From the NCBI GenBank assembly GCA_017554235.1, contig JAFZIV010000061.1, positions 15,984-79,983 on the forward strand: a stretch of DNA of 64,000 nt. The letters are read 5' to 3'. The notes below the pieces were generated by a model. That model was not told the origin of the DNA, made no database searches, and saw nothing but the letters and a program-made list of their open reading frames with translations. This DNA comes from Selenomonadaceae bacterium. Lineage in GTDB: Bacteria; Bacillota; Negativicutes; Selenomonadales; Selenomonadaceae. The position numbers and the translations under genes are program-made. Shown here one piece after another: positions 6,808-47,262 of the stretch. Positions within the stretch are counted from its first letter, which is position 1, and each line of letters starts with the position of its first letter.

Positions 6808-6828
6808 AATGCCTCCCTAAAAATTTTT

Positions 6829-7425
6829 TCACTGCGGATTATTATTGCCTTCATTGGGCTTAGGATTTTCCGTTGTATCATCCTTAACGCCCTTCAAAAC
6901 TCTTGCATTACCTTTCAACAAAAATTTTTGAAAACCGTTCATACTCTCTGCGCGATCAGCAAAGGCTCGCATATCGTCTTTAGCAATTCTTACGTCCTCT
7001 GTTGCAATTAACATTTCTTCATTACTAAGCCAATCAAGATTAACCGTCTCAAGCTTGCCGCCATCGCCGTCAGTCATTACGACATCTCCTTCAACGTGAA
7101 CATTGTGTGTATCTTGATCGTAGTAACCTTGAATCGCAGTCAACTCCAAAACTTTTCCGTCTTCTTGAAAAAATTTTCCTTTAATGTTGCTAAACTCTGC
7201 GCGGTGGGTATTTGAATCGACACGAATTTTGTCGGAGGTAATTTCCCAAATTTTGACTCCGTCTTTTTCTTCAGTCAACGTATTATTTTCGTATTCCATA
7301 TAAGAAGGCGGTTCAACGTAATCGGAGGGCGGCGGTTTATCGGGAGTTGTTCGCACGACCCAAGTTACGAGACAAACAAATAATACCGCTAATACACCAA
7401 TTAAAACTTTTACTTTATTTTCCAT
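6829..7425 (-). CDS. lptC: LPS export system protein LptC-like
   Basis: Single N-terminal TM anchor plus a beta-rich periplasmic domain of about 170 aa. It is the first gene of the lptC-A-B-F/G array. Confidence 0.65.
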   Translation of the reverse strand: MENKVKVLIGVLAVLFVCLVTWVVRTTPDKPPPSDYVEPPSYMEYENNTLTEEKDGVKIWEITSDKIRVDSNTHRAEFSNIKGKFFQEDGKVLELTAIQGYYDQDTHNVHVEGDVVMTDGDGGKLETVNLDWLSNEEMLIATEDVRIAKDDMRAFADRAESMNGFQKFLLKGNARVLKGVKDDTTENPKPNEGNNNPQ

Positions 7426-7574
7426 ATCCCTACCAAATTTTTTTATTTATAATAAAAAATTTTATCACGAAAAATTGAAAAGCGCAATTTTTTAATTGGG
7501 AAATTATTTTCTACGTCTAAAAGTAATTACGCCTTATTTTATTTCCGCGCAGAGTTTAGCAAAAATTTTTACAT

Positions 7575-7605
7575 AAAAAATTGGCGGCTTAAAATTAAGC
7601 TCACC
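7575..7605 (-). terminator. candidate intrinsic terminator downstream of the PTS gene
   Basis: The minus strand reads ggtgagcttaattttaagccgcc followed by aatttttt, just after the stop at 7619. Confidence 0.45.
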
Positions 7606-7618
7606 AGAGGTTAAGTTA

Positions 7619-8944
7619 TCAATTTGTTTCTTCGGGATCATCAAATCCTAAAATCCATGTCGCGATAAATCCTGCAACGTATGAAACACCGACACCCAAA
7701 AGATAAATCGGAATATTATTTGTTGTAGCGGCAAGCGGCAATCCCGAAATTCCCAACGTCGCCGCGCCTACCATATTCGACGCTTGCACAGCTCCGCCAA
7801 ACGCCGCGCCTATGCACGCGCCTATAAACGGTCTGCCAAGCGGAAATGTTACGCCGTAAATTAACGGTTCACCTACGCCCATCATTCCGACGGGTAATGC
7901 CGACGCGATTGTTTTTTTGAGAAATTTATTTTTCGTCTTGAAATATACAGCCGCCGCCGCTCCGACTTGTCCCGCGCCTGCCATTGCTAATATCGGTAAC
8001 AAAATTGTTACGCCGTAAGTGGAAATTAAATCCACGTGTATTGGAGTGAACGCTTGATGAACGCCGAACATTACCATTGGCAGCCACATTCCCGCCAATA
8101 TCGCTCCGACAACTGCGCCGCCTGAAGCTATCGCACCCGTTGCCGCCGCACCTATTGCATCTGAAATTGCTCCGCCTATCGGTTGTAATACGAAAATTGC
8201 CGCCGCGCCCGCTATTAATACCGTAAACAATGGTGTCAAAAATAATTCAAACATTTCAGGAATAACTTTCCGCAAATTTTTTTCAAGCCATGCTCCCAAC
8301 GCCGCGACCAACACAACTGAAATTACTCCGCCGCGTCCCGGTACCAATCCCAATTCTGTAAGTGAAGGGTGCGTTATTATTGCCGCCAATACTCCGCCAA
8401 TTATCGGTGAGCCGCCAAAAACTTTTCCCGCGTTGTAACCTACGAAAAGATTCATTCCCCAAAATACCGCGTTACCAAAAACTTCCAGCAATTTGATAAT
8501 CTGCGCGGACTCAAGTTCAGGAGAAATTTTGAGCGTAACGCCTACCAGTCCCGTTATCAAGCCGCAAGCTATAAATCCCGGTATCAGCGGCAAGAATATG
8601 CTTGCAATTTTTTTAAGAAAAAGTTTAGCTGGTGTTGCATTTTTAGCGCGTATTTCTTCGTGCAAAGCTTTTCCGTCACCAATTCTTGATTTAGCCATAT
8701 CCTTAAGCAAAATTTCTTTGATAGCAGCGGCAACATTTGATGATTTACCCGGTCCTACGATAACTTGAAATTCGTTACCGTCTTCATTAGTACCGAGTAC
8801 TCCTTCAAGTTTTTTTATTTCATCCGCAGAAATTTTTTTGCCGAGTTGCAGACGTACACGCGTCATACAATTTGTGACGCTTATAACATTTTCTGCACCT
8901 CCGGCAAGTTTAAAAATTTTCGCGGCAAGTTCTTCGTTAGTCAA
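7619..8944 (-). CDS. PTS transporter subunit EIIBC (glucose/sucrose/MurNAc-type family), sugar unknown
   Basis: N-terminal EIIB domain with the phospho-Cys motif NCMTRVRL, followed by a roughly 350-aa polytopic EIIC domain. Confidence 0.8.
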   Translation of the reverse strand: MTNEELAAKIFKLAGGAENVISVTNCMTRVRLQLGKKISADEIKKLEGVLGTNEDGNEFQVIVGPGKSSNVAAAIKEILLKDMAKSRIGDGKALHEEIRAKNATPAKLFLKKIASIFLPLIPGFIACGLITGLVGVTLKISPELESAQIIKLLEVFGNAVFWGMNLFVGYNAGKVFGGSPIIGGVLAAIITHPSLTELGLVPGRGGVISVVLVAALGAWLEKNLRKVIPEMFELFLTPLFTVLIAGAAAIFVLQPIGGAISDAIGAAATGAIASGGAVVGAILAGMWLPMVMFGVHQAFTPIHVDLISTYGVTILLPILAMAGAGQVGAAAAVYFKTKNKFLKKTIASALPVGMMGVGEPLIYGVTFPLGRPFIGACIGAAFGGAVQASNMVGAATLGISGLPLAATTNNIPIYLLGVGVSYVAGFIATWILGFDDPEETN

Positions 8945-13011: not shown

Positions 13012-14118
13012 ATGGCATATCAAGTTATTGTAGTTGAAGAAGATAAACAGGTATTAGAAAAATTAACCACCGCGCTTAGAAGGTCGCCAGACTTTGAAGT
13101 TGCCTCAACTTACAAAACGGCTGATTTAGCACTTGGACAAAGCCGAATGTTTAAGCCAAATTTATTTTTGATTAATGTTGATGACAGCGAGAACGTTCAA
13201 TTACTTCGGTCTTTTGTGAATTCTTATCCCCACGCCAAAATTTTAGGAATGTTAAGTTCTTGGGATTCAAGTATAGTTTATTCTTGCACTAAGGTGGGCA
13301 TAGACGGCTGTATTTTAAAATCTTTTACCGTTGAAGAAATTAAAAAAGCTCTTCAACTTTATGCACTGCGCGGTGAAAAACGTCCATCACGTTTAATAGC
13401 TTTCTTCAGTCCGAAGGGTCGTGCAGGTCGCACAACCGCCGCGTCGATTCTTGCTTTAAAATTGGCTGAAAAAAGCGGTGATCGTGTCGCGTTAATCGAT
13501 GCCGATTTGCAATTTGGGGATATGCCGATTTTCTTTGACGTTGACCCTGAAAATACGATAATTGAGGCTTCACAAGATATAAAATTGCTTAACCCGCTGA
13601 CTTTTGAGCCATATTTTTGTCCTTTGAAAGATAATTTGTCTTTGCTTGCAAGTTCGGAGCAACCTGAATATGCCGAACTGGTAGAAGCGGAAAATTTTAT
13701 CGAAGTTATCAAAATGACTTGCACATTGTTCAGATATGTTTTGATAGATTTGCCTTCGGGATTTAATCCGATTTCAATAAATACTTGCGATTTGGTAGAC
13801 ACAAGTGTTATTATGGTAATGTTGGACAATGTCTTTGATATTTACCATATGCGCCGCGCCTTAGAAATGTTTCAAACTTTCAGAAAGGATCGCAAAAGAA
13901 TTTATACCTGTTTTACTCGTGTCAATCCTTGCACAGAGGAAGAGCGGTTAAAACTTCAGCGTGAACTCGGTTATCCCGTGACAGATATTTTGCCTAATGA
14001 ATATCAAATGATTTCGCTTGCTAACAGCGGCAGACTTTTAAAGGGCTTGCCGAAAGATTCCAAGTTTATGGAATATGCCGATAAATTTACTGACGACATC
14101 ATTAACGATAGGAGATGA
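13012..14118 (+). CDS. TadZ/CpaE with N-terminal receiver-like domain
   Basis: An N-terminal CheY-like fold of about 120 aa, then a MinD-like domain (FFSPKGRAGRTT, LIDADLQFGD). This is the classical CpaE architecture. Confidence 0.75.
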   Translation: MAYQVIVVEEDKQVLEKLTTALRRSPDFEVASTYKTADLALGQSRMFKPNLFLINVDDSENVQLLRSFVNSYPHAKILGMLSSWDSSIVYSCTKVGIDGCILKSFTVEEIKKALQLYALRGEKRPSRLIAFFSPKGRAGRTTAASILALKLAEKSGDRVALIDADLQFGDMPIFFDVDPENTIIEASQDIKLLNPLTFEPYFCPLKDNLSLLASSEQPEYAELVEAENFIEVIKMTCTLFRYVLIDLPSGFNPISINTCDLVDTSVIMVMLDNVFDIYHMRRALEMFQTFRKDRKRIYTCFTRVNPCTEEERLKLQRELGYPVTDILPNEYQMISLANSGRLLKGLPKDSKFMEYADKFTDDIINDRR

Positions 14119-14125
14119 AAAAATT

Positions 14126-15091
14126 TTGATTCTCCTTGCCGCGTTGTTAATGTCAATCTTTGGGCTTTTACTGCTTTTACTTTTGGTAGTGTATTCGCGC
14201 AAACAGGTTAATAAAATAGATATTTCTAGGATTCTTCGGCGGCAACATATCGTGGACGCAAAATTTAAAAAAGCTGATACAAAGACTTTGGTTGAAAGGC
14301 TTTACGGCATTGTTCAAGAAATTGCTAAGCCGCTTGTCGATAGAAGAATTTTTGAAGGATTAGACCTTAAATTGAAACAAGCTGACATACAAATTGCCGG
14401 CGCAGAGTTCTTCATAATAATTTTGTTTGTAGTACTTGTGACAGGTATTTTGATGTATATGCTGACGATCAATTTTTTGTTTTCTGTAGTAACGTGTTGG
14501 GGAATTCCGCTGTTTGCTTGGATTTTGATATTACTTCGGATTCAAAAGCGGAAAGCTTCTTTCACGGAACAGCTTGGAGATTGTCTCGTAACTGTGGCTA
14601 ATGCTTTACGCGCAGGATACAGCTTTCAACAAGCAATGGAGGTGATTGCAAAGGAAATGGAACCGCCTATAAGTCAAGAGTTTTCGCGAACTTTCACTGA
14701 TGTTAAAATGGGAATAACGCTTGAAAGAGCATTGGAGCAAATGAATCAACGCGTTGACAGTGCAGATTTCTCGCTTGTGGTAACTGCCGTATTGATTCAG
14801 CGCGAAGTCGGCGGTAACCTTGCACAAATCCTTGACTCAATCAGCGAAACGATTATTGAGCGCATCAGGATGAAACGCGAAATACACGCCTTGACCGCGC
14901 AGGGTAGAATGTCTGCAATGGTGTTATTAGCTTTACCTTTTGCAATGGGAATTTTCATGTATTTTGCCAATCCAGATCAATTTATGATTTTGTTTGAAGA
15001 TTCTTTCGGTCAAATTGCTGTTATCGTTGCGATTGTACTGAATATAATAGGATTTATTATTATAAGAAGAATCGTCGATATTGAAGTATAG
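14126..15091 (+). CDS. tadB: Flp pilus assembly platform protein TadB (T2SS F family)
   Basis: T2SSF domain (LRAGYSFQQAM, REVGGNL) and TM helices. TTG at 14126 is the preferred start (AGGAGA 10 nt upstream). The ORF-track start at 14075 would overlap tadZ. Confidence 0.8.
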   Translation: MILLAALLMSIFGLLLLLLLVVYSRKQVNKIDISRILRRQHIVDAKFKKADTKTLVERLYGIVQEIAKPLVDRRIFEGLDLKLKQADIQIAGAEFFIIILFVVLVTGILMYMLTINFLFSVVTCWGIPLFAWILILLRIQKRKASFTEQLGDCLVTVANALRAGYSFQQAMEVIAKEMEPPISQEFSRTFTDVKMGITLERALEQMNQRVDSADFSLVVTAVLIQREVGGNLAQILDSISETIIERIRMKREIHALTAQGRMSAMVLLALPFAMGIFMYFANPDQFMILFEDSFGQIAVIVAIVLNIIGFIIIRRIVDIEV

Positions 15092-15854: not shown

Positions 15855-17351
15855 ATGAGGTCTCTTTCATTACTTGAAAGATTGAGCGGCAAGAAAAAAG
15901 ATACGAATAAACCAGTCCGCACGACATTAAAAGATTTAGCAAATCCGCAAACTTCGCCGCAAACTCCGCAAGTGCCTGAAGAAAAGCCGCAAATTTATTC
16001 GCGCGACGGTCATTCGCAAAATGATGCGCCGGTTATAGCGTCATCTTTCGTCGGCAGGCGTCCGATCGAAACAAAAAGCGAGCAGGTTCATGATTTAAAA
16101 CTTGCAATTCACAGGCGTATCGTAAACGAAATGACGCCGGAAGAAGAAGCGTTGCTGACTAGAGGCGAATCTGCGCGGGAAGAAGTAAAAAATGTAATTG
16201 CTTCTTACAGTACGCGTGAACTTACGGATAGCACGTATAATTTGACGCGCACCGACAGAAATAATTTGATTGAGGATATTTGTAATGAACTTTTAGGACT
16301 CGGACCGCTTGAACCGCTCTTGAAAGATGAAAGCATTACAGAAATCATGGTTAATGGTGCAAAAACTATCTTCATCGAACAAGCAGGTAAATTAAAACTC
16401 ACTGACGTATATTTTTATGACGACACGCATTTAATGAATGTAATTGAAAGGATACTGACGCCATTGGGAAGGCGCGTTGATGAATCTTCACCGCTGGTTG
16501 ACGCAAGACTTGCTGACGGTTCGCGCGTCAACATTATTATCCCGCCGTTGGCTTTAACAGGTCCTACAGTCACCATAAGAAAATTTTCCAAAAAGGCACT
16601 CGGTATAAATGATTTGGTCGGCTTCGGAACTTTAAGCGAAAACATGGCAGAATTTTTACAAGCATGTGTTAGAGCGCGATTGAATATTTTGGTTTCCGGC
16701 GGCACAGGTTCAGGAAAAACTACAACTTTAAATGCGCTTAGTTCATTTATTCCTGAAAACGAAAGAATTGTTACAATAGAAGACGCCGCAGAATTAAAAC
16801 TTCAACAGCAACACGTAGTTACTTTGGAGGCGCGTCCCGCGAATCTTGAAGGCAAAGGCGCAATTACGATTCGTGACTTGGTAAGAAATGCTTTGCGTAT
16901 GCGTCCCGATAGAATTATCGTCGGCGAAGTTCGCACAGGCGAAGCGTTAGATATGTTGCAAGCCATGAATACAGGACATGACGGCTCATTGACAACCGCG
17001 CACGCCAATACTCCGCGCGACGTTTTAAGCAGACTTGAAACAATGGTTTTAATGGCAGGAATGGAGTTGCCTGTTCGCGCAGTCAGAACGCAAGTTTCCT
17101 CTGCTCTCGATTTAATTATTCAGCAGTCCAGAATCCGCGACGGTAGCAGAAAAATTACTCATATATCAGAAGTTCAAGGTATGGAAGGCGACACTATTAT
17201 TTTGCAAGATTTATTTAACTACGTGCAAGATTATATTGACGATCGCGGAAAATCCGTCGGGCATTTTGAGGCGTCAGGACTTCAACCAAACTTTATGGAC
17301 AAATTTAAGATGAACGGCGTAGATATTCCCTTGTCACTTTTTCAACGTTAG
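15855..17351 (+). CDS. cpaF: Tad pilus secretion ATPase CpaF/TadA
   Basis: Walker A GGTGSGKTT, Asp box, Walker B, and His box (TGHDGSLTTAHAN). 498 aa with a disordered N-terminal region. Confidence 0.95.
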   Translation: MRSLSLLERLSGKKKDTNKPVRTTLKDLANPQTSPQTPQVPEEKPQIYSRDGHSQNDAPVIASSFVGRRPIETKSEQVHDLKLAIHRRIVNEMTPEEEALLTRGESAREEVKNVIASYSTRELTDSTYNLTRTDRNNLIEDICNELLGLGPLEPLLKDESITEIMVNGAKTIFIEQAGKLKLTDVYFYDDTHLMNVIERILTPLGRRVDESSPLVDARLADGSRVNIIIPPLALTGPTVTIRKFSKKALGINDLVGFGTLSENMAEFLQACVRARLNILVSGGTGSGKTTTLNALSSFIPENERIVTIEDAAELKLQQQHVVTLEARPANLEGKGAITIRDLVRNALRMRPDRIIVGEVRTGEALDMLQAMNTGHDGSLTTAHANTPRDVLSRLETMVLMAGMELPVRAVRTQVSSALDLIIQQSRIRDGSRKITHISEVQGMEGDTIILQDLFNYVQDYIDDRGKSVGHFEASGLQPNFMDKFKMNGVDIPLSLFQR

Positions 17352-17362
17352 GGTTGATAATC

Positions 17363-18952
17363 ATGGGACTGAGCAACAGCATTAGGCACAAATTATTTTT
17401 CCTGCTGATAATTATGGGCGCAATTCCTTTCACTATTGTGATAATTGTCAGCTCCTTTGCAACAGTTTCCGAGTGGGAACAATCTATCGAGCATAACGGA
17501 CGTTTAAGAAATGTACTTATCTCCGAGCACGTAACGGAATTATTTGAGAAAAATTTTTACGTAATGCAAACGGCGGCACTAAATTCAGATATAATCAATT
17601 ACGTAGGAAATCCGCAATCCGTACCAAATGATAAAGAAATTTTGCGCCTGATGAAAGATATAAACTCAATTTTTCACGTCCAAAACGTAATGGGCTTGAC
17701 GGCAAACAACGGCATGCAACTTATAAGAACAGACGGAGAAAAGCTTGTAGACATTTCTAAGCGCGAACATTTTATACAGGCAATGCGAGGAAACAATTTT
17801 GTTTCGGATGTTATTTTGAGTATGTCAACAGGAAAAATGATTGTTGTTTTAACCGTCCCAATAAAAAATGGAGATAATGAGATCGTCGGACTGGTACAAA
17901 GAAATTTTCACTTGTCGGCTTTTCAAGATTTTATCGCAATGCAAGATAACGCCGAAATTTCTATAATTATTTTGGATCGTAACGGCAACGTCATTGCAAA
18001 TTCTGATAACGGAGACGATTTAGCAAAAAATTTTTATGAAAACGATACATACAAATCTGTTGCTGATAAATTATATAAGTGGTCGGGGACTGTCCATGAG
18101 CAAGTAGCCGGTGAAGATGCGCTTGTAAGTTACTCAAAAAATAATTTAACGGGCTGGACAATTATCACGGTTCAACCTTATAAATATATTTTGAATCAAG
18201 TTTATTCGGAAATTATCAAGTACGCTTTCATAGGATTTTTTATGCTGTTATTAATCAGCGGCATTGCTTATTTCACTTCTGTTAGGGCGACAAGACCTAT
18301 TATCGAAATTACAAAAGCGGCAAGTCAAATCGCAAGCGGTGATGTTTCAAATGTCGAGGCGTTGAATATTCATTCTGATGACGAATTTGGCGAAATGGCA
18401 CAGGCTTTTAACAAAATGCGTACTGCGCGGGATAATTATCGGGCGGAAGCGTCGATTGACAGATTGACTAAACTTTATAACAAAATGACTTTTGAAAATG
18501 TCTGCCAAATTAAATTGAGAAAGTTAAATGACGTAGAAGAAAGGGAAAATTTGCTGGCACTTTACATAATCGACTTGGATCATTTTAAGGAAGTTAATGA
18601 CACGAAAGGGCATCAATTCGGCGACATAGTTTTAAAAGAATTTTCCAAAAAACTGCGCGGCTGTTTCAGACCGTATGATTGCGTAGCGCGATTCGGCGGA
18701 GATGAATTTGTAGTTGTCATAGATAACTTGCCGAACACCGAAGTAATAACCCGCAAGGCTGATATTATAAATCGTCTTGCACGCGAACTTGAAATTGACG
18801 GCGAAAACGCAAAAATTTCTGCGAGTATAGGAATTGCGATTGTTCCGCAAGCCGGTACAGATTACGAGGAAGTTTTCAAAGCTGCAGATAATGCTTTGTA
18901 CTACGTGAAAAAAAATGGACGCGACGGTTGGCATTGCGATAATTTAAATTGA
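17363..18952 (+). CDS. membrane sensor diguanylate cyclase (Cache-like sensor, HAMP, GGDEF)
   Basis: Two TM segments flank a periplasmic domain of about 250 aa. HAMP region (RPIIEITKAASQIASGD). GGDEF domain with an intact RFGGDEF active site. Confidence 0.9.
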   Translation: MGLSNSIRHKLFFLLIIMGAIPFTIVIIVSSFATVSEWEQSIEHNGRLRNVLISEHVTELFEKNFYVMQTAALNSDIINYVGNPQSVPNDKEILRLMKDINSIFHVQNVMGLTANNGMQLIRTDGEKLVDISKREHFIQAMRGNNFVSDVILSMSTGKMIVVLTVPIKNGDNEIVGLVQRNFHLSAFQDFIAMQDNAEISIIILDRNGNVIANSDNGDDLAKNFYENDTYKSVADKLYKWSGTVHEQVAGEDALVSYSKNNLTGWTIITVQPYKYILNQVYSEIIKYAFIGFFMLLLISGIAYFTSVRATRPIIEITKAASQIASGDVSNVEALNIHSDDEFGEMAQAFNKMRTARDNYRAEASIDRLTKLYNKMTFENVCQIKLRKLNDVEERENLLALYIIDLDHFKEVNDTKGHQFGDIVLKEFSKKLRGCFRPYDCVARFGGDEFVVVIDNLPNTEVITRKADIINRLARELEIDGENAKISASIGIAIVPQAGTDYEEVFKAADNALYYVKKNGRDGWHCDNLN

Positions 18953-18971: not shown

Positions 18972-19955
18972 ATGGACGACTTGATTATCACCATTTCTTT
19001 TGCAGGAGCTATGTTTTGGTTTTTCTTCACAATATTTATTTTTCAGGTAAAGCAAGGTGCACAATCGCAGATAAGGCGCAGAGTAAGTATTATGATAACA
19101 AAAGCTGAAAATGAACGCGCCAAAAAAGCCGCCAAAATAAAACAAGATGCTAAACAGGCTGAAGAATTACAGATTAGAAAGTTACCTAAAAATAAATTTT
19201 ATACAAAAGTCATCTCACCCATTTTTGATAAACTTGATAAGCATTTCCAAAAATTTGTTCCTGAACAAATAAAAAAAATGTTGGAAGAAAAAATCTTTAT
19301 CGCAGGTAAAGCAAACGTATGGAGTTTAACGCGAGTAATTTCATTTTGCTTTCTCACAACTTTTGCAGGAGCATTGACGGCAGGAATGATAACGACTATA
19401 GTTGAAGTAAATTTTTTACAGAAAATCTTGATTGTTTTGATCGGAGGATTTTTGGGAGCAATATTGCCGATTGTGCGTTTAAATGCCTTGATTCGTATCA
19501 GACAGAAAGCGATTCGTCGAGGCTTACCTGAATTTTTAGATTTACTTTGCGTGAGTGTTCAAGCCGGACTTTCTTTCGACGGCGCGGTTGCCAAAATTAC
19601 TGACAGAATGGAAGGACCTCTTGTCGATGAATTTAAGAAAATGCAAAACGATGTAAACTTGGGAATGACGCGCCAATATGCACTGCAACAAATTGCGCGG
19701 CGTTGTGATTTGGAGGAAATGTATCTGTTTACTTCTTCGGTCATTCAATCGGAAAAACTTGGAACGAGCATGGGGCGTACTTTAAAAATGCAAGCTGACA
19801 ATATGCGTGAAAGACATCGCCAATTTGTAAAAGCAGAGGCGTTGAAAGCTCCCATAAAAATTATTTTCCCAATGGTACTGTTTATTTTCCCGTCAGTCTT
19901 CGTTGTACTTTTAATGCCAGCTATTTTAAACTTAATGAAAAATCTTGCCAAATAA
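18972..19955 (+). CDS. tadC: Flp pilus assembly platform protein TadC (T2SS F family)
   Basis: T2SSF domain (GLPEFLDLLCVSVQAGLSF, SEKLGTS) and TM helices. Confidence 0.85.
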   Translation: MDDLIITISFAGAMFWFFFTIFIFQVKQGAQSQIRRRVSIMITKAENERAKKAAKIKQDAKQAEELQIRKLPKNKFYTKVISPIFDKLDKHFQKFVPEQIKKMLEEKIFIAGKANVWSLTRVISFCFLTTFAGALTAGMITTIVEVNFLQKILIVLIGGFLGAILPIVRLNALIRIRQKAIRRGLPEFLDLLCVSVQAGLSFDGAVAKITDRMEGPLVDEFKKMQNDVNLGMTRQYALQQIARRCDLEEMYLFTSSVIQSEKLGTSMGRTLKMQADNMRERHRQFVKAEALKAPIKIIFPMVLFIFPSVFVVLLMPAILNLMKNLAK

Positions 19956-19959
19956 TTTT

Positions 19960-20208
19960 TGAAAAAGGCGGTGTTTGTAGTCAGTAACCCCCGCCTAACG
20001 GCGGAGGCTTGTTAAAAGCCTTGATTGACTAGCCTTAGTCTCTGACTACGTTACTTGCGAATGTATAGTTACCTACGAGCGTAAATCCTAACTTGTAGCT
20101 CTAAGGGCAATGGTTAAACAGTTCTGAGAGGTAAGAACAGTGCTGTTGCCATGTAAACCGCAAGATAACTTTGGCGAAGGATTATAACTCCGAGAGGAGG
20201 TATGCTTT
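19960..20208 (+). ncRNA. candidate IscB omega-RNA (guide plus scaffold)
   Basis: 253-nt non-coding gap directly 5' of iscB on the same strand. Nested helices readable by eye are: gtagtcag 19977-19984 with ctgactac 20042-20049; ccgcc 19991-19995 with ggcgg 20000-20004; aggctt 20005-20010 with aagcct 20016-20021; ggcaa 20106-20110 with ttgcc 20146-20150; gttct 20121-20125 with agaac 20134-20138. Size and position fit the known IscB omega-RNA arrangement. The exact ends and the guide are not determinable here. Confidence 0.6.
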
Positions 20209-21486
20209 TTGTTAGCATACGTTATCAATAAGCACGGAAAACCTTTAATGCCGTGCAAACCACAAAAAGCTAAAAAACTTTTGAAACAAGGTAGGGTAAA
20301 AGTTATTCGCCGCGAGCCGTTTACAATTCAGTTTTTGTATGGAGCAAGCGGTTATCAGCAGCTCGTAACATTAGGAGTAGACGCAGGTGCAAAATATATC
20401 GGTTTATCTGCGTCAACTGAAAAGAAAGAATTGTATTCTGCCGAAGTTGTGTTACGTACCGACATTACCGAATTAATTTCTACACGTAGAGAATTGAGGA
20501 GGGCAAGGCGCAATCACAAAACACGTTATCGTAAATCAAGATTCTTAAATCGAGTTAAGGCAAAGAAAAAAGGTTGGCTTGCACCGTCGATTTTAAACAG
20601 AATCAACGCACATTTAAAAGTTGTCGATAATGTTTGCCGAATTTTGCCGGTAACAAAAATTATTGTGGAGACAGCGAGCTTTGATATTCAGAAAATCAAA
20701 AATCCTGAAATCAGCGGCGTTGAATATCAGCAGGGCGAACAATTAAATTTCTGGAATGTGAGGGAATATGTTCTATTTAGAGATAAACACGAATGTCAAC
20801 AATGTCACGGGAAAAGCAAAGACAATGTTTTAAATGTTCACCATTTAGAAAGTCGAAAAACTGGAGGTGACGCTCCAAATAATTTAATCACGCTGTGCGA
20901 GACTTGCCACAAAAAATATCACGAAGGAAAAGTCAAACTGAAACGCGGACAGAGTTTTAAGGCAGAAGCATTTATGGGAACAATGCGTTGGATTTTCTTA
21001 AATAAATTGAAAGAAATTTATTTAATCGAAGTCCGAAATACATTCGGCTACATAACGAAGAATACAAGAATTAGATTGGGCTTTCCGAAGGAACATTACA
21101 TTGACGCTTATTGTATCGCAGGAAATGTTTGTGCCAAGAGATTAAATTATTACTGGTACTTGAAACAAGTGAGAAAACACAATCGGCAGATACACAAGCT
21201 TACGATTAATAAGGGCGGTAATCGCAAAAGAAATCAAACGCCGTTTGAAATTTTTGGCTACAGACTTTTTGATAAAGTAAAATGTAAAGGCGAGGTAGGA
21301 TTTATTTTTGGGCGCAGAGCAAGCGGCAGTTTTGATATTCGCAGGCTTGACGGCACAAAAATTTCTGCTGGAATCAGTTACAAAAAGTTAGAATTAATTG
21401 TAAAAAGGAAAAGTTATTTGAAAGAGAGGAGGGGCGCGGTTTCCTCCACACAACTAAATCAGGGGGTATCCAACGCGCATATGTGA
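20209..21486 (+). CDS. iscB: IscB RNA-guided nuclease (PLMP domain, split RuvC, bridge helix, HNH, C-terminal TID)
   Basis: 425 aa. The N-terminus NKHGKPLMPC is the PLMP motif. RuvC-I is LGVDAGAKYIG (Asp58). The Arg-rich bridge helix is RRELRRARRNHKTRYRKSRF. RuvC-II is IIVETASFD. The HNH region is CQQCHGKS..NVHHLESRKTGGDAPNNLITLCETCHKKYH. RuvC-III is HYIDAYC. The C-terminal part is FGYRLFDKV...GFIFGRRASGSFDIRRLDG. TTG start behind GAGGAGG. Confidence 0.85.
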   Translation: MLAYVINKHGKPLMPCKPQKAKKLLKQGRVKVIRREPFTIQFLYGASGYQQLVTLGVDAGAKYIGLSASTEKKELYSAEVVLRTDITELISTRRELRRARRNHKTRYRKSRFLNRVKAKKKGWLAPSILNRINAHLKVVDNVCRILPVTKIIVETASFDIQKIKNPEISGVEYQQGEQLNFWNVREYVLFRDKHECQQCHGKSKDNVLNVHHLESRKTGGDAPNNLITLCETCHKKYHEGKVKLKRGQSFKAEAFMGTMRWIFLNKLKEIYLIEVRNTFGYITKNTRIRLGFPKEHYIDAYCIAGNVCAKRLNYYWYLKQVRKHNRQIHKLTINKGGNRKRNQTPFEIFGYRLFDKVKCKGEVGFIFGRRASGSFDIRRLDGTKISAGISYKKLELIVKRKSYLKERRGAVSSTQLNQGVSNAHM

Positions 21487-23267
21487 TGAAAAAGTTTTTG
21501 AAGTTTTTGAAGTTCTTATCGGCACAGAAGGGACAAACACTTGTCTTATACGCGCTTTTAGTTCCGCTTCTTTTTATGGTAGGCGGAGCAAGTGTAGATT
21601 TAGGCTGGTATTATTACAACAACGCCCGTTTACAAAATATGGCTGACGCGGCAGTTATTGCCGGAGGAAAAGCTCTTGTAAGTGAAAATGGAGAATTGAC
21701 AAATTACACGTACAATAAATTTTTATCTGAAGTTCCCCGCGAAGAAAGGGACGATAAATACAACTTACAAACTCCAATAGGTGATGCAGAAGCTAAAAAT
21801 TATATTGTTAAAAATTTATCCGAAAATTCTAATTGGAACGGCAATCAGATAAACGACAATTTCAGTAACAGTGAATTAAATTTCCAAAGAAATATTTACG
21901 GAATAAAAGATAATCAGGATATTCCGCTTTATTACGAAGTGGAACTTACAGAAAAACATCAACACTTGTTCGACATTTTAAATGATCCCGAATATTCCTT
22001 AGGCAATACGGTTATTACCGTAAATTCTGTTGCGGAATTAAAATATTCGCCGCCTCCTGAGGACCCTACCCCGCCTCCTCAAGAGACTGCACCTGAACCC
22101 ATATCAAACAATATACCGCGACTGGCAGCTGTAAGTGTTGTTAGCGGAAACTGGGAACTTGAAGATGGAAGAATCAGCGGAAAATGGAAAAAAGCGAATG
22201 CAGAGAAAGAACTGGCTAAAAATACCGACAACCTTTTTATTCAAATGTCGGTAAACAGTATTTATCCTGTCGATAAAGTATGGCTGAATTACAATAGCAC
22301 AACAAATTCATATACGACTGGCAATTTTTATAGATCTGCTACGGTTTACGTTAATCCCGGTAACGGAAGATTACGTACAGGTAATGACAGCACAAAAGGC
22401 GAAAAATATCCCGATTCTATAACTCTTGGTTTCAGACAAGACCTTATCAGAGTTTTGCCGGGATATTTGGAAATTCAAGATGGTAAAGTCGTCCGCGTTA
22501 AAGACGGCGGAGACACAATTTTTGATCAAGATTGGGACATTAGAAGAAATACTCCATACAACAGAAAAACGGAAGTCAGATATATAAACCCCAATAAATT
22601 TTGGGACAAATCTTGTGATTTACGAATACACAACATTTTTAATTTTGATACGCCTTTTGAAGTTCGTCCTGAAGTAATTGAGGCAGATAAAAGTAACCCT
22701 TACGATGCTTTATGGGTACGAGTAGAAAGTGAAGCATTTATTCCGCTTAAAATGCTGGGCGTTAATAAAGCCAATCACGTTCAATATAAATCTGTTCGAC
22801 AAATAATTCTCAATATGAATGGCGATAATACTGTAAAAGATGAGAATGGAAATTATAAATACCGCCCTGTCGTAATGTTTTATATGGGGCCTGAAAAAAT
22901 TGATATGAGTTCGTCAGTAAGAAATTCAAAACCGATCATTTTAAATTTGAATGCAGACTTTAGGGGGATTTTGTTTGCGCCGTACAGTCCGGTAATTTTA
23001 AATGCAAATGGTCATAAATTTTACGGCTTTATTGTTGCAAAAGAATATCGCAAATTTACAGTAAATAAAAATGAAGGACATAAAGTTAAACACAATAAAA
23101 GCAACGAAATGTATATCGATGATTATGGAGAAGTATTTAGCGAAAGAACCGACATAGAAAAATGTGGCGACTATGATTCATTTAACATAATGAGTTTTGA
23201 GGACTACGGCTATCAAGTCGCAGATGAAGAAGCCTCCCAAAATAATTTGCTCATATACAGCGAATAG
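21486..23267 (+). CDS. TadG-like pilus-associated protein (putative minor pilin or tip protein)
   Basis: The N-terminus QKGQTLVLYALLVPLLFMVGGASVDLGWYY matches the TadG/Tad-like pseudopilin leader. There is a Pro-rich linker. The C-terminal motif is ADFRGILFAPYSPVILNANGHKFYGFIVA. Its ATG shares one nt with the iscB TGA. Confidence 0.65.
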   Translation: MKKFLKFLKFLSAQKGQTLVLYALLVPLLFMVGGASVDLGWYYYNNARLQNMADAAVIAGGKALVSENGELTNYTYNKFLSEVPREERDDKYNLQTPIGDAEAKNYIVKNLSENSNWNGNQINDNFSNSELNFQRNIYGIKDNQDIPLYYEVELTEKHQHLFDILNDPEYSLGNTVITVNSVAELKYSPPPEDPTPPPQETAPEPISNNIPRLAAVSVVSGNWELEDGRISGKWKKANAEKELAKNTDNLFIQMSVNSIYPVDKVWLNYNSTTNSYTTGNFYRSATVYVNPGNGRLRTGNDSTKGEKYPDSITLGFRQDLIRVLPGYLEIQDGKVVRVKDGGDTIFDQDWDIRRNTPYNRKTEVRYINPNKFWDKSCDLRIHNIFNFDTPFEVRPEVIEADKSNPYDALWVRVESEAFIPLKMLGVNKANHVQYKSVRQIILNMNGDNTVKDENGNYKYRPVVMFYMGPEKIDMSSSVRNSKPIILNLNADFRGILFAPYSPVILNANGHKFYGFIVAKEYRKFTVNKNEGHKVKHNKSNEMYIDDYGEVFSERTDIEKCGDYDSFNIMSFEDYGYQVADEEASQNNLLIYSE

Positions 23268-46852: not shown

Positions 46853-47262
46853 AAAATTGCCTCCTAAATTTTAATCGCAGATATTATCACATTGTTTTAA
46901 AAAATTATCAAGCAAAAAATTTTCAGAATCTACTCGAATATTTATAGACAAAACGCAATATTTGTAGTAGGATTTTAAGTGGAATAAAATAATTTTTTTG
47001 GAAAGGGAGTTTTAAACAGTAACCCCAAACATTGACAAAAATATACATAGTCTCTAAAATGTCCCTATCAGCGAGAACCAAGCTGAATAAAAAAGTTTTA
47101 ATACCGGTGGCTCGCCGGGAATTCACGACTGTGGAGTGTTACAGCAAACGTTAGTAGGTAAGCCGAGAACGGACACGATGAAGCAGTAAGACAGAATCGC
47201 GAGGTCTGTCCGATTCATCTTGACTTAGACTTTTGTCTATGTTTTAAGGAGCAGTGGTTGTA

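What the first reader, a model, noticed from the sequence alone, without database searches (positions are those of the whole stretch)
19900..21520. IscB sits seamlessly inside the Tad pilus operon: no TnpA, no visible IS ends, stop codon fused to the next start
IscB genes normally reside in IS200/IS605-type elements with subterminal hairpin ends and often a TnpA. Here the module exactly fills the tadC to tadG-like gap on the operon strand. The iscB TGA shares a nucleotide with the ATG of the tadG-like gene (cat atg TGATG aaa aag), so no room remains for a right-end structure. No Y1 transposase ORF lies within several kb.

Three explanations are possible:
- the element end lies inside the tadG-like N-terminal coding sequence;
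- the element is immobilised and co-transcribed, or translationally coupled, with pilus genes;
- IscB has been co-opted in this context.

The presumptive guide segment at the 5' end of the RNA would be specified by sequence at the tadC 3' end and spacer (about 19956-19976).
Basis: partly seen in the sequence, partly recalled or inferred. Interest (0 to 1): 0.6.

Follow-up and report, generated by a model that had tools for sequence, protein, structure and literature searches.

The report
IscB transposon docked on tadG start codon
The IscB gene in the Tad pilus operon is an ordinary, complete, non-autonomous IscB/omega-RNA insertion element with recognisable ends; it landed exactly between the ribosome-binding site and the ATG of the tadG-like gene, as about twenty sister copies in this genome did at other genes.

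Summary
The sequence facts hold. There is an omega-RNA (HEARO, 19980-20188), an intact IscB ORF (20209-21486), a TGATG stop/start overlap with the tadG-like gene, and no Y1 TnpA anywhere in the assembly.

"No visible IS ends" is wrong. The genome holds 24 HEARO copies, mostly 310-360 bp mini-elements.
- All copies begin at GTCA(A/G)TAACC; the upstream flank differs in every copy and is the guide.
- They end in a subterminal hairpin, about 7 nt, then |ATGA.

The window element is therefore 19980-21485 (1,506 bp). Its far end lies inside iscB's own 3' coding region. The ATGAA target (TAM) is the tadG start codon, so the IscB stop codon is TG (element) plus A (target).

A same-genus relative has tadC directly followed by tadG. 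Orthologues of five other occupied genes show SD-ATG empty sites.

All of this matches ISC transposons with the N|ATGA target (Kapitonov 2016) and ISGst5/GstIscB with TAM TTCAT (Meers 2023). In those, TnpA is nearly always absent and the omega-RNA needs host read-through.

The one less-described point is start-codon docking. In 11-12 of 15 ends here, and 17 of 25 in other phyla, the target ATG opens a real gene, murG included. A conserved GGAGG lies at the foot of the end hairpin and may replace the displaced ribosome-binding site (inferred).

The parts
18972..19955 (+). tadC-like gene (T2SSF); upstream host gene whose transcript must read into the element
   Evidence: ORF; Pfam T2SSF 1.2e-15
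19964..19979 (+). Presumptive 16-nt omega-RNA guide, AAAGGCGGTGTTTGTA. This is the former tadC-tadG spacer and holds tadG's original Shine-Dalgarno sequence AAGGCGGTG (19965-19973). It is host DNA, outside the element.
   Evidence: The flank immediately 5' of the scaffold differs in all 24 copies. It is unique in the genome, with no hit at 1 mismatch or fewer. The guide position follows Meers 2023.
19980..20208 (+). Omega-RNA (HEARO) scaffold. Its first base, GTCAGTAACC..., is the element boundary on the omega-RNA side (the 'RE' in TnpA convention).
   Evidence: RF02033 at 128 bits, model positions 1-211 matched to 19980-20188. The start GTCA[AG]TAACC is shared by the copies. The 5'-GTCA terminus matches the ISC elements of Kapitonov 2016.
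19988..20007 (.). Subterminal hairpin on the omega-RNA side: CCCCCGCC-TAAC-GGCGGAGG
   Evidence: Read from the sequence; it is the first stem-loop of the HEARO consensus
20209..21486 (+). iscB, 425 codons, TTG start (ATG in sister copies). All nuclease motifs are present. The final A of its TGA stop codon belongs to the target site.
   Evidence: dN/dS is 0.04-0.08 against paralogue C47 and four rumen-MAG homologues.
21427..21485 (.). Subterminal end structure (the 'LE' in TnpA convention) inside the iscB 3' coding sequence. It consists of AGGAGG (21427-32), outer stem GCGCG (21434-38) paired with CGCGC (21474-78), a 35-nt loop with an inner CCTCC/GGGGG stem, and the 7-nt spacer ATATGTG (21479-85). 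The last base of the element is 21485.
   Evidence: Homologous ends in 13 type-A copies. Folds. Conserved geometry with at least 12 different stem sequences. The stem is present in 14 of 14 representatives against 1.7 of 14 in shuffles. The window copy's own fold is not better than shuffles (z 0.05).
21486..21490 (+). Target site / TAM, ATGAA (reverse complement TTCAT). It forms the tadG-like start codon plus the first two bases of codon 2.
   Evidence: Conserved ...G|ATGA(A) follows every end. Published as the N|ATGA target and the TTCAT TAM of GstIscB.
21486..23267 (+). tadG-like gene (Tad/TadE N-terminal domain), intact at 593 codons. The start at 21486 agrees with the orthologue's N-terminus.
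   Evidence: The G014 orthologue is 54% identical and aligns from residue 6. Its N-terminus and tadC-tadG spacer were read.

Best explanation
Window 19980-21485 is a complete 1,506-bp non-autonomous ISC/IscB insertion element of the IS200/IS605 superfamily, of the N|ATGA-target (TAM TTCAT) type. It inserted without target duplication between the Shine-Dalgarno sequence and the ATG of the tadG-like gene.

Shown:
- both boundaries;
- the subterminal hairpins;
- the target motif;
- an intact IscB and omega-RNA;
- the multicopy family;
- empty-site synteny in relatives.

Inferred from published work on the family:
- The omega-RNA has no promoter of its own. It is made from tad-operon read-through.
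- Its guide is the 16 nt of host spacer (19964-19979).
- IscB/omega-RNA would cut the empty site (guide match followed by ATGAA) if the element were excised or absent on a sister chromosome, which forces its re-copying.

Inferred here:
- tadG is still translated because the IscB reading frame runs through the end hairpin and terminates on TG|A, overlapping tadG's ATG (termination-reinitiation).
- Alternatively or additionally, the AGGAGG at the 5' foot of the end hairpin is brought to about 8 nt from the ATG when the hairpin forms.
- With no TnpA in the genome, the copy is currently unable to transpose. It persists as a co-transcribed passenger.
- It is the only complete, intact IscB gene of this family found in the assembly. 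It could serve the roughly 15-20 orphan omega-RNA mini-elements in trans.
For: Identity of the parts:
- HEARO at 128 bits.
- RRXRR and HNH domains.
- Solved IscB structures at E 1e-40 or better, with RuvC and HNH motifs aligned.
- dN/dS of 0.04-0.08.

Boundaries:
- 24 HEARO copies in the genome.
- Every upstream flank differs and all scaffolds start GTCA[AG]TAACC.
- 13 type-A ends read ...CCGCGCATAT[GT][TC]G|ATGA and 2 type-B ends read ...GCGACACTTTAA|ATGAA, followed by unrelated sequence.

Empty sites:
- G014 has the tadC stop, a 30-nt spacer with an SD, then the tadG start, and no IscB.
- Orthologues of the POR, murG and rel genes and of two unnamed genes (C56 and C49 copies) in G014, G045 and G007 have the SD and spacer directly before ATG. 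Their upstream DNA is visibly homologous to the G000 left flanks for POR, murG, rel (G045) and C56, but not clearly for C49.

End hairpin: an outer stem closing a loop of about 30 nt, 3-11 nt before ATGA, with at least 12 different complementary stem sequences across phyla. It is present in 14 of 14 representatives against 1.7 of 14 in shuffles.

Literature:
- ISC elements have 5'-GTCA...CG-3' termini, the N|ATGA target, subterminal hairpins and no TSD, and are non-autonomous (PMC4810608).
- The GstIscB TAM is TTCAT, the omega-RNA side is the RE, the guide lies outside the element and needs external transcription, and about 1.5% of iscB genes lie near tnpA.

No + strand terminator lies between tadC and tadG.
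Against: - No empty site was found in a conspecific strain; two metagenome scans found nothing. The tadC-tadG empty site therefore rests on a relative whose TadG is only 54% identical.
- The window copy's end hairpin is weak. The outer stem is 5 bp, and the fold energy is no better than shuffles as RNA (z 0.05) or as DNA (z 0.20).
- No TnpA was found in the genome, and only fragments in 4 of 31 genomes of the genus. How 24 copies spread is unexplained. Multicopy genes are easily lost from a metagenome-assembled genome.
- iscB starts with TTG where sister copies have ATG.
Confidence: 0.9

Rival explanations
1. Dead relic. The element is a fossil with no present activity. IscB is no longer used, and the copy is kept only because it cannot be deleted precisely without damaging tadG expression.
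For: - No TnpA in the assembly, and only fragments in the genus.
- The outer stem of the end hairpin is weakened in this copy (CCAACGCGC against the consensus CCGCCGCGC).
- The start codon is TTG instead of ATG.
- Several sister iscB copies are pseudogenes or internally deleted.
Against: - The 425-codon frame is fully open and all catalytic motifs are present.
- dN/dS is 0.04-0.08, although this measures the history of the lineage and not the present.
- It is the only complete, intact IscB gene of this family found among about 20 omega-RNAs that would need it.
Confidence: 0.2
2. Co-option. IscB/omega-RNA has been recruited as an RNA-guided regulator or component of the Tad pilus operon.
For: It fits seamlessly on the operon strand, with the stop/start overlap. 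RNA-guided regulators derived from TnpB are known (TldR papers listed).
Against: - The same element sits in front of unrelated genes: POR, murG, rel, rsmE, a WbsX glycosyltransferase and a Bmp-type binding protein.
- The relative's tad operon lacks it.
- The nuclease motifs are intact, not dead.
- The guide equals its own flank and has no other near-match followed by ATGA in the genome.
Confidence: 0.03
3. The element's true end lies inside the tadG coding sequence, so the TadG N-terminus is element-encoded.
For: ATGAA and the lysine-rich MKK start recur after many copies, so they could be mistaken for element sequence.
Against: - After ATGA(A) the sequences of all copies are unrelated.
- Orthologues without any element start with the same ATG(A) and the same N-terminal peptides.
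- Published empty sites place ATGA in the target.
Confidence: 0.02

Closest known systems
ISC transposons with the N|ATGA target (ISC1-1_MA of Microcystis, ISC2-1_HM, ISC2-1_MS; Kapitonov, Makarova and Koonin 2016, PMC4810608)
   Same: - IscB-only and non-autonomous.
- 5'-GTCA terminus and ...(C/T)G-3' terminus.
- Inserted immediately 5' of ATGA with no target duplication.
- Subterminal imperfect hairpins.
- Multicopy (one search compared).
   Different: - The host is a rumen Selenomonadaceae-like bacterium.
- Most copies here are omega-RNA-only minis of 310-360 bp.
- The paper never uses the terms 'start codon', 'initiation codon' or 'translation'.
ISGst5 / GstIscB of Geobacillus stearothermophilus (Meers et al. 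2023, bioRxiv 10.1101/2023.03.14.532601)
   Same: - The TAM TTCAT is the reverse complement of ATGAA.
- The omega-RNA scaffold abuts the transposon RE, and the guide lies outside the element.
- It depends on outside transcription.
- It is co-oriented with the upstream gene, with no tnpA in cis.
   Different: - G. stearothermophilus encodes a TnpA that mobilises its elements in trans. None was found here.
- The nuclease, TAM and excision activities were measured there and are only inferred here.
OgeuIscB and other solved IscB-omega-RNA complexes (7xht, 7utn, 8csz, 11hr)
   Same: PLMP/RRXRR N-terminus and a RuvC domain split by HNH. The RuvC-III region (HY[IL]DAYCIA) and the HNH motifs align (E 1e-40 to 1e-43).
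   Different: About 70 residues shorter. The structure and activity of this protein are untested.
PATE-type miniature IS200/IS605 derivatives (named in Kapitonov 2016)
   Same: The 310-360-bp copies keep both transposon ends and no protein gene.
   Different: They keep a full omega-RNA scaffold, each with its own flank-derived guide, so they are potential clients of an IscB supplied in trans.
Hairpin-bridged ('split') ribosome-binding sites of phage T4 genes 38 and 25 (from my own knowledge, not checked here)
   Same: A Shine-Dalgarno sequence sits too far from the ATG in the linear sequence and is brought to normal spacing by an intervening hairpin. Here GGAGG lies 0-3 nt 5' of the stem and the ATG 3-11 nt 3' of it.
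   Different: The resemblance is purely architectural, with no homology. Function here is untested.

Membership tests
IscB (OMEGA) RNA-guided nuclease | N-terminal PLMP/RRXRR domain and a RuvC fold interrupted by an HNH domain | tested here: met
   Pfam RRXRR 7e-66 and HNH 8.6e-8. phmmer against solved IscB chains gives E 9.6e-43.
IscB (OMEGA) RNA-guided nuclease | Catalytic motifs present (RuvC-I D, RuvC-II E, HNH His/Asn, RuvC-III H..D) | tested here: met
   GVDAG, ETASFD, HHLE...NN and EHYIDAYCIA align with the matching motifs of a solved IscB. This rests on alignment only.
IscB (OMEGA) RNA-guided nuclease | Cognate omega-RNA (HEARO) directly upstream on the same strand | tested here: met
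   RF02033 at 128 bits against a gathering score of 83, full length, ending 20 nt before the ORF
IscB (OMEGA) RNA-guided nuclease | RNA-guided, TAM-dependent DNA cleavage | not testable with these tools
   Requires a biochemical or plasmid-interference assay
ISC / IS200-IS605 superfamily non-autonomous transposon, N|ATGA type | Defined termini shared by several copies in different genomic contexts | tested here: met
   24 HEARO copies and 15 recognisable far ends
ISC / IS200-IS605 superfamily non-autonomous transposon, N|ATGA type | Subterminal imperfect hairpins instead of terminal inverted repeats | tested here: met
   Hairpin at 19988-20007. Outer stem at 21434-38/21474-78, with covariation across at least 12 stem variants. 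The window copy alone is not significant.
ISC / IS200-IS605 superfamily non-autonomous transposon, N|ATGA type | Insertion 5' of a specific 4-5-bp target (ATGA/ATGAA) without target-site duplication | tested here: met
   ATGA follows the recognisable ends in this genome, apart from one GTGA variant, and most ends read in other genomes. The flanks GTTTGTA and ATGAAAA share no repeat.
ISC / IS200-IS605 superfamily non-autonomous transposon, N|ATGA type | Empty site (flank + target, no element) in related genomes | tested here: met
   tadC-tadG in G014 and five other orthologous loci. These are species-level relatives only. A strain-level empty site was not found.
ISC / IS200-IS605 superfamily non-autonomous transposon, N|ATGA type | A Y1 (HUH) TnpA available in cis or in trans | tested here: inconclusive
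   PF01797 is absent from the 94%-complete assembly, with fragments in 4 of 31 genomes of the genus. Absence in cis is normal for this family. A trans source on unbinned DNA cannot be excluded.

The most novel reading that the evidence does not exclude
The ATGA-TAM clade of IscB elements is a start-codon-docking transposon.
- Its target, ATGA(A), is the start codon plus the next base of a host gene.
- It resides between that gene's Shine-Dalgarno sequence and its ATG, co-oriented with the gene, so host transcription makes its guide RNA. The guide is then the host gene's own ribosome-binding region.
- Its outward-facing end carries a portable translation-initiation device: GGAGG at the foot of the end hairpin, about 7 nt of spacer, and in some copies an IscB stop codon completed by the target's A. 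This device keeps even essential downstream genes such as murG expressed.
- In this genome the IscB in the Tad operon, the only complete intact gene of this family found in the assembly, would serve about 15-20 orphan omega-RNA minis in trans.
Probability: 0.4. Interest if true: 0.6.

Novelty: new member of a known kind. Interest (0 to 1): 0.33.

Why it matters
For this locus the result is a clarification. An apparently orphan, 'seamless' IscB is a normal ISC transposon, and the puzzles raised (no TnpA, no room for an end, fused stop/start) follow from published properties of the family once the boundaries are mapped.

The genome is nevertheless a useful natural experiment.
- It holds 24 omega-RNA-bearing copies, one complete intact nuclease gene of the family, and no transposase.
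- The insertions sit exactly between the ribosome-binding site and the ATG of conserved genes, including murG, rel and rsmE.

If the conserved GGAGG-hairpin-spacer end really substitutes for the displaced ribosome-binding site, that would explain how these elements live inside operons without polar damage. It would also give a compact, portable translation-coupling module. In addition, many natural IscB guides would then be ribosome-binding-site sequences.

Tried and rejected
1. A conserved mini-ORF in the mini-elements that would couple translation to the host gene. Rejected: start codons and frames are not conserved. Only a few copies (for example C47 and C49) keep a short ORF that ends near the boundary, while others have ATT or ATA, or stop early.
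2. Thermodynamic support for the window's end hairpin. None: z 0.05 as RNA and 0.20 as DNA. The support comes only from covariation and geometry across copies.
3. A strain-level empty site. An exact-pattern scan of metagenome contigs for left flank + ATGAAAAAG found nothing. A TadG-based locus search in metagenomes found no relative.
4. RNA-seq evidence for read-through.
5. A within-genome control for the SD-like motif, using the second IscB family (target GTTAAA, not at start codons). Inconclusive: one copy has GGAAGG before the stem and one has none.
6. Off-target matches of the guide. None with 1 mismatch or fewer, and none followed by ATGA.
7. Reading Weinberg 2009 and Altae-Tran 2021 for earlier remarks on start codons. 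Neither paper is held. Full-text searches found no paper that links the IscB TAM to start codons.


Full report
**1. What is at the coordinates**

The window is contig C58:15984-79983 of a 2.27-Mb, 65-contig, 94%-complete assembly.

The + strand carries a Tad/Flp pilus cluster:
- two ParA/TadZ-like genes;
- T2SSF (tadB-like, 14075-15091);
- T2SSE ATPase (15855-17351);
- a dCache-HAMP-GGDEF gene (17354-18952);
- T2SSF (tadC-like, 18972-19955);
- a 425-codon ORF (20209-21486);
- a 593-codon protein with a Tad/TadE N-terminal domain (21486-23267).

The 425-codon ORF has Pfam RRXRR (7e-66) and HNH. It matches solved IscB chains at E 1e-40 to 1e-43, and the RuvC-I, RuvC-II, HNH and RuvC-III motifs align.

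Rfam places a full-length HEARO RNA (RF02033), the omega-RNA of IscB, at 19980-20188 with 128 bits against a cut-off of 83.

The TGA of iscB (21484-21486) shares its A with the ATG at 21486.

**2. The ends are visible once paralogues are compared**

The same genome has 24 HEARO matches. It has only one complete, intact IscB gene of this family, the window copy. The others are cut by contig ends, pseudogenised or internally deleted, and there is one IscB of a second family at 41% identity.

Most HEARO copies are mini-elements of 310-360 bp. Each consists of the scaffold, a stub of the iscB 5' end and the last 60 or so bases of iscB.

All copies begin with GTCA[AG]TAACC, and the 60 nt upstream are unrelated from copy to copy.

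At the other side there are two types of end:
- 13 copies end ...GCGCGG-loop-CCGCGCATAT[GT][TC]G and are followed by ATGA(A), or by GTGA in one copy;
- 2 copies end ...GTCGC-loop-GCGACACTTTAA and are followed by ATGAA.

After that motif the sequences are unrelated.

The window element is thus 19980-21485 (1,506 bp). Its far end is inside iscB's own 3' coding sequence, and the motif ATGAA (21486-21490) is host DNA. The IscB stop codon is TG from the element plus the A of the target.

**3. Empty sites in relatives**

The closest congeneric genome, G014, has a TadG 54% identical. There the tadC stop codon is followed by a 30-nt spacer with a purine-rich SD and then the tadG start, with no IscB. 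Its N-terminus (MIQKIFKSLMIQKGQALVFYALLIPLLF) aligns with the window's MKKFLKFLKFLSAQKGQTLVLYALLVPLLF. The start at 21486 is therefore the real one.

The reconstructed window site is TAA-tttttgaaAAAGGCGGTGtttgta|ATGAAAAAG. This is a normal 24-nt intercistronic spacer with an SD 8 nt from the ATG.

Five other occupied genes give the same picture: POR alpha, murG, rel, and two unnamed genes downstream of the C56 and C49 copies. Their orthologues in G014, G045 and G007 have the SD and spacer directly before ATG. The upstream DNA is visibly homologous to the G000 left flank for POR, murG, rel (G045) and C56. For C49 the homology is not obvious.

For POR, for example:
- G014 reads ...aaaaggaggcggcgaa|ATGAGT;
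- G000 reads ...gtaaaggaggagaaaga|[element ...aaatttg]|ATGAGC.

This places the boundary immediately before ATGA, and the former SD in what is now the guide segment.

**4. Fit to published families**

Kapitonov et al. 2016 (PMC4810608) defined ISC transposons. These are IscB-only, non-autonomous and lack TIRs and TSDs. They have subterminal hairpins and, for several cyanobacterial and proteobacterial families, 5'-GTCA and CG-3' termini with the target N|ATGA. That is exactly the pattern here.

Meers et al. 2023 showed the following:
- only about 1.5% of iscB genes lie near tnpA;
- the omega-RNA scaffold abuts the transposon RE, with the guide outside the element;
- omega-RNA production therefore requires transcription entering from the host, which explains a strong co-orientation bias with the upstream gene;
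- GstIscB and TnpA share the TAM TTCAT, the reverse complement of ATGAA.

Lack of TnpA, insertion on the operon strand and the absence of spare non-coding DNA at the 3' side are therefore the expected state and not anomalies.

Y1_Tnp is absent from the whole assembly. It is present only as fragments in 4 of 31 genomes of the genus. HEARO occurs in 5 of 31 genomes, with 24 copies here, 7 in G014 and 5 in G045. The IscB homologues closest to this one are in rumen Selenomonadaceae and Quinella MAGs, at about 80% identity.

**5. How it most likely works**

Shown:
- intact parts, boundaries and target;
- a guide (19964-19979, AAAGGCGGTGTTTGTA) that is unique in the genome;
- no + strand terminator-like site between tadC and tadG, and promoter-like sites no more frequent than chance;
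- strong purifying selection on IscB (dN/dS 0.04-0.08).

Inferred from the family's biology:
- Tad-operon read-through produces the omega-RNA.
- IscB/omega-RNA recognises guide match + ATGAA, which is the empty donor joint, and cuts it, so that recombination restores the element.
- Without a TnpA the copy cannot currently move.

**6. The stop/start fusion**

In the closest foreign copies (L055-L057) IscB stops at a TAA in the hairpin loop, about 30 nt before the end. The window copy and C21 differ by one base in the loop. Their frame therefore runs through the hairpin to TG|A. L058 also ends TGATG.

Because the element ends ...TG and the target begins with A, a stop codon overlapping the host ATG is created automatically in that frame. 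In '...TCG|ATGA' copies the overlap is ATGA. The fusion is thus a by-product of the junction in one sub-lineage. It gives a classic termination-reinitiation arrangement for tadG.

**7. Start-codon docking**

In this genome the ATG of the target opens an ORF of at least 148 codons at 11 of 15 ends, or 12 if a GTG variant with a 104-codon membrane protein is counted. Genome-wide, 16.4% of ATGA sites do so. This gives P = 1.7e-6, or 8e-5 against a generous 24% background.

The genes are real. Pfam identifies POR_N, WbsX, Bmp, HD_4 with RelA_SpoT, Methyltrans_RNA (RsmE-type), MurG-type GT28 and FHA.

In IscB relatives from other phyla, 17 of 25 distinct ends are followed within a few bases by ATGA opening an ORF of at least 71 codons. 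These come from Sutterella, Vibrio, Marinomonas, Desulfobacterales, Sporosarcina, Erysipelotrichaceae and Clostridium.

A simple account is that three constraints intersect at start codons:
- the TAM is ATGA(A);
- the element must lie inside a sense transcript;
- the element must not break a coding sequence.

**8. Is the end also a ribosome-binding site?**

Every end examined has the same geometry:
- a GGAGG/AGGAG-like core 0-3 nt 5' of the outer stem in most ends (further away, weaker or not called by the script in a few);
- a 5-10-bp outer stem, in at least 12 different complementary versions;
- a loop of about 30 nt with an inner hairpin;
- 3-11 nt of spacer, most often 7;
- ATGA.

The stem is present in 14 of 14 representatives against 1.7 of 14 in shuffles.

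If the hairpin forms in mRNA, the SD-like core lies about 7-10 nt from the ATG. Insertions sit in front of murG, which is normally essential. The purine-rich core also persists in Sporosarcina and Clostridium elements, where it lies outside the IscB ORF. Both points argue that the end supplies translation signals.

Against this:
- the same features may serve TnpA recognition;
- the window copy's stem is weak;
- mini-ORFs are not conserved;
- the one available control family was uninformative.

I rate this inference at about 0.4.

**9. Verdict**

This is an ordinary member of a known transposon kind, and its anatomy is now fully mapped. Co-option is unsupported.

Earlier notes of this scan report the same start-codon docking in other genomes. 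I treated them as leads. One of them pointed me to Kapitonov 2016, which I then read myself. I found no paper that links the TAM to start codons, but two key papers could not be read.

Noticed in passing
window 47128-47189 (+): Full-length RAGATH-18 RNA (RF03064), 70.6 bits against a cut-off of 44.9
   Followed up: no
window 17354-18952 (+): A dCache-HAMP-GGDEF diguanylate cyclase gene lies between the Tad ATPase and tadC. In relative G014 the ATPase is followed directly by tadC (L054: 7782-9239, then 6812-7768, minus strand). The cyclase gene is therefore a lineage-specific addition to the operon.
   Followed up: partly
window 21489-21515 (+): The tadG 5' end holds a 9-nt tandem repeat (aagtttttg aagtttttg aagttctta) that encodes KFLKFLKFL directly after the target site
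   Followed up: no
G000 C13:78272-79426 (-) and C64:26435-26760 (+): A second IscB/omega-RNA family, 41% identical. Its ends are followed by GTTAAA(A/G), not ATGA. In C13 the element sits upstream of the host SD, not between the SD and the ATG.
   Followed up: partly
G000 C4:48742-48955 (-), in front of hfq: A variant omega-RNA mini-element without the usual far end. It is flanked on both sides by nearly the same 19-20 nt (aaaggagaaatttt(t)cagaa), which contains the hfq SD. It looks like a duplication that restored SD-ATG spacing after insertion. The hfq start is ATGG, not ATGA.
   Followed up: no
G000 C50:59560-59602 (+), left flank of the rsmE copy: The left flank carries a roughly 33-nt near-copy of rsmE codons 31-43 (KGDKIVAVDTLG) in place of the SD region seen in relatives. 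This may be a rearrangement or a repair scar.
   Followed up: no
G000 C65:16972-17562 (+): The weakest HEARO hit (66 bits) is followed, about 80 nt later, by an ORF beginning MQRGYKVEIEPTPQQALKIRQTIGICRWLYNQYL. This looks like the N-terminus of a TnpB (recognised from memory, not tested). The ORF is cut by the contig end. It may be a nested or chimeric element.
   Followed up: no
G000 contig ends (C47:1, C10, C21, C44, C46, C52, C64 ends): Several contigs break inside IscB/HEARO copies, so the true number of full-length iscB copies is probably underestimated, and a TnpA-bearing copy may have been missed
   Followed up: no
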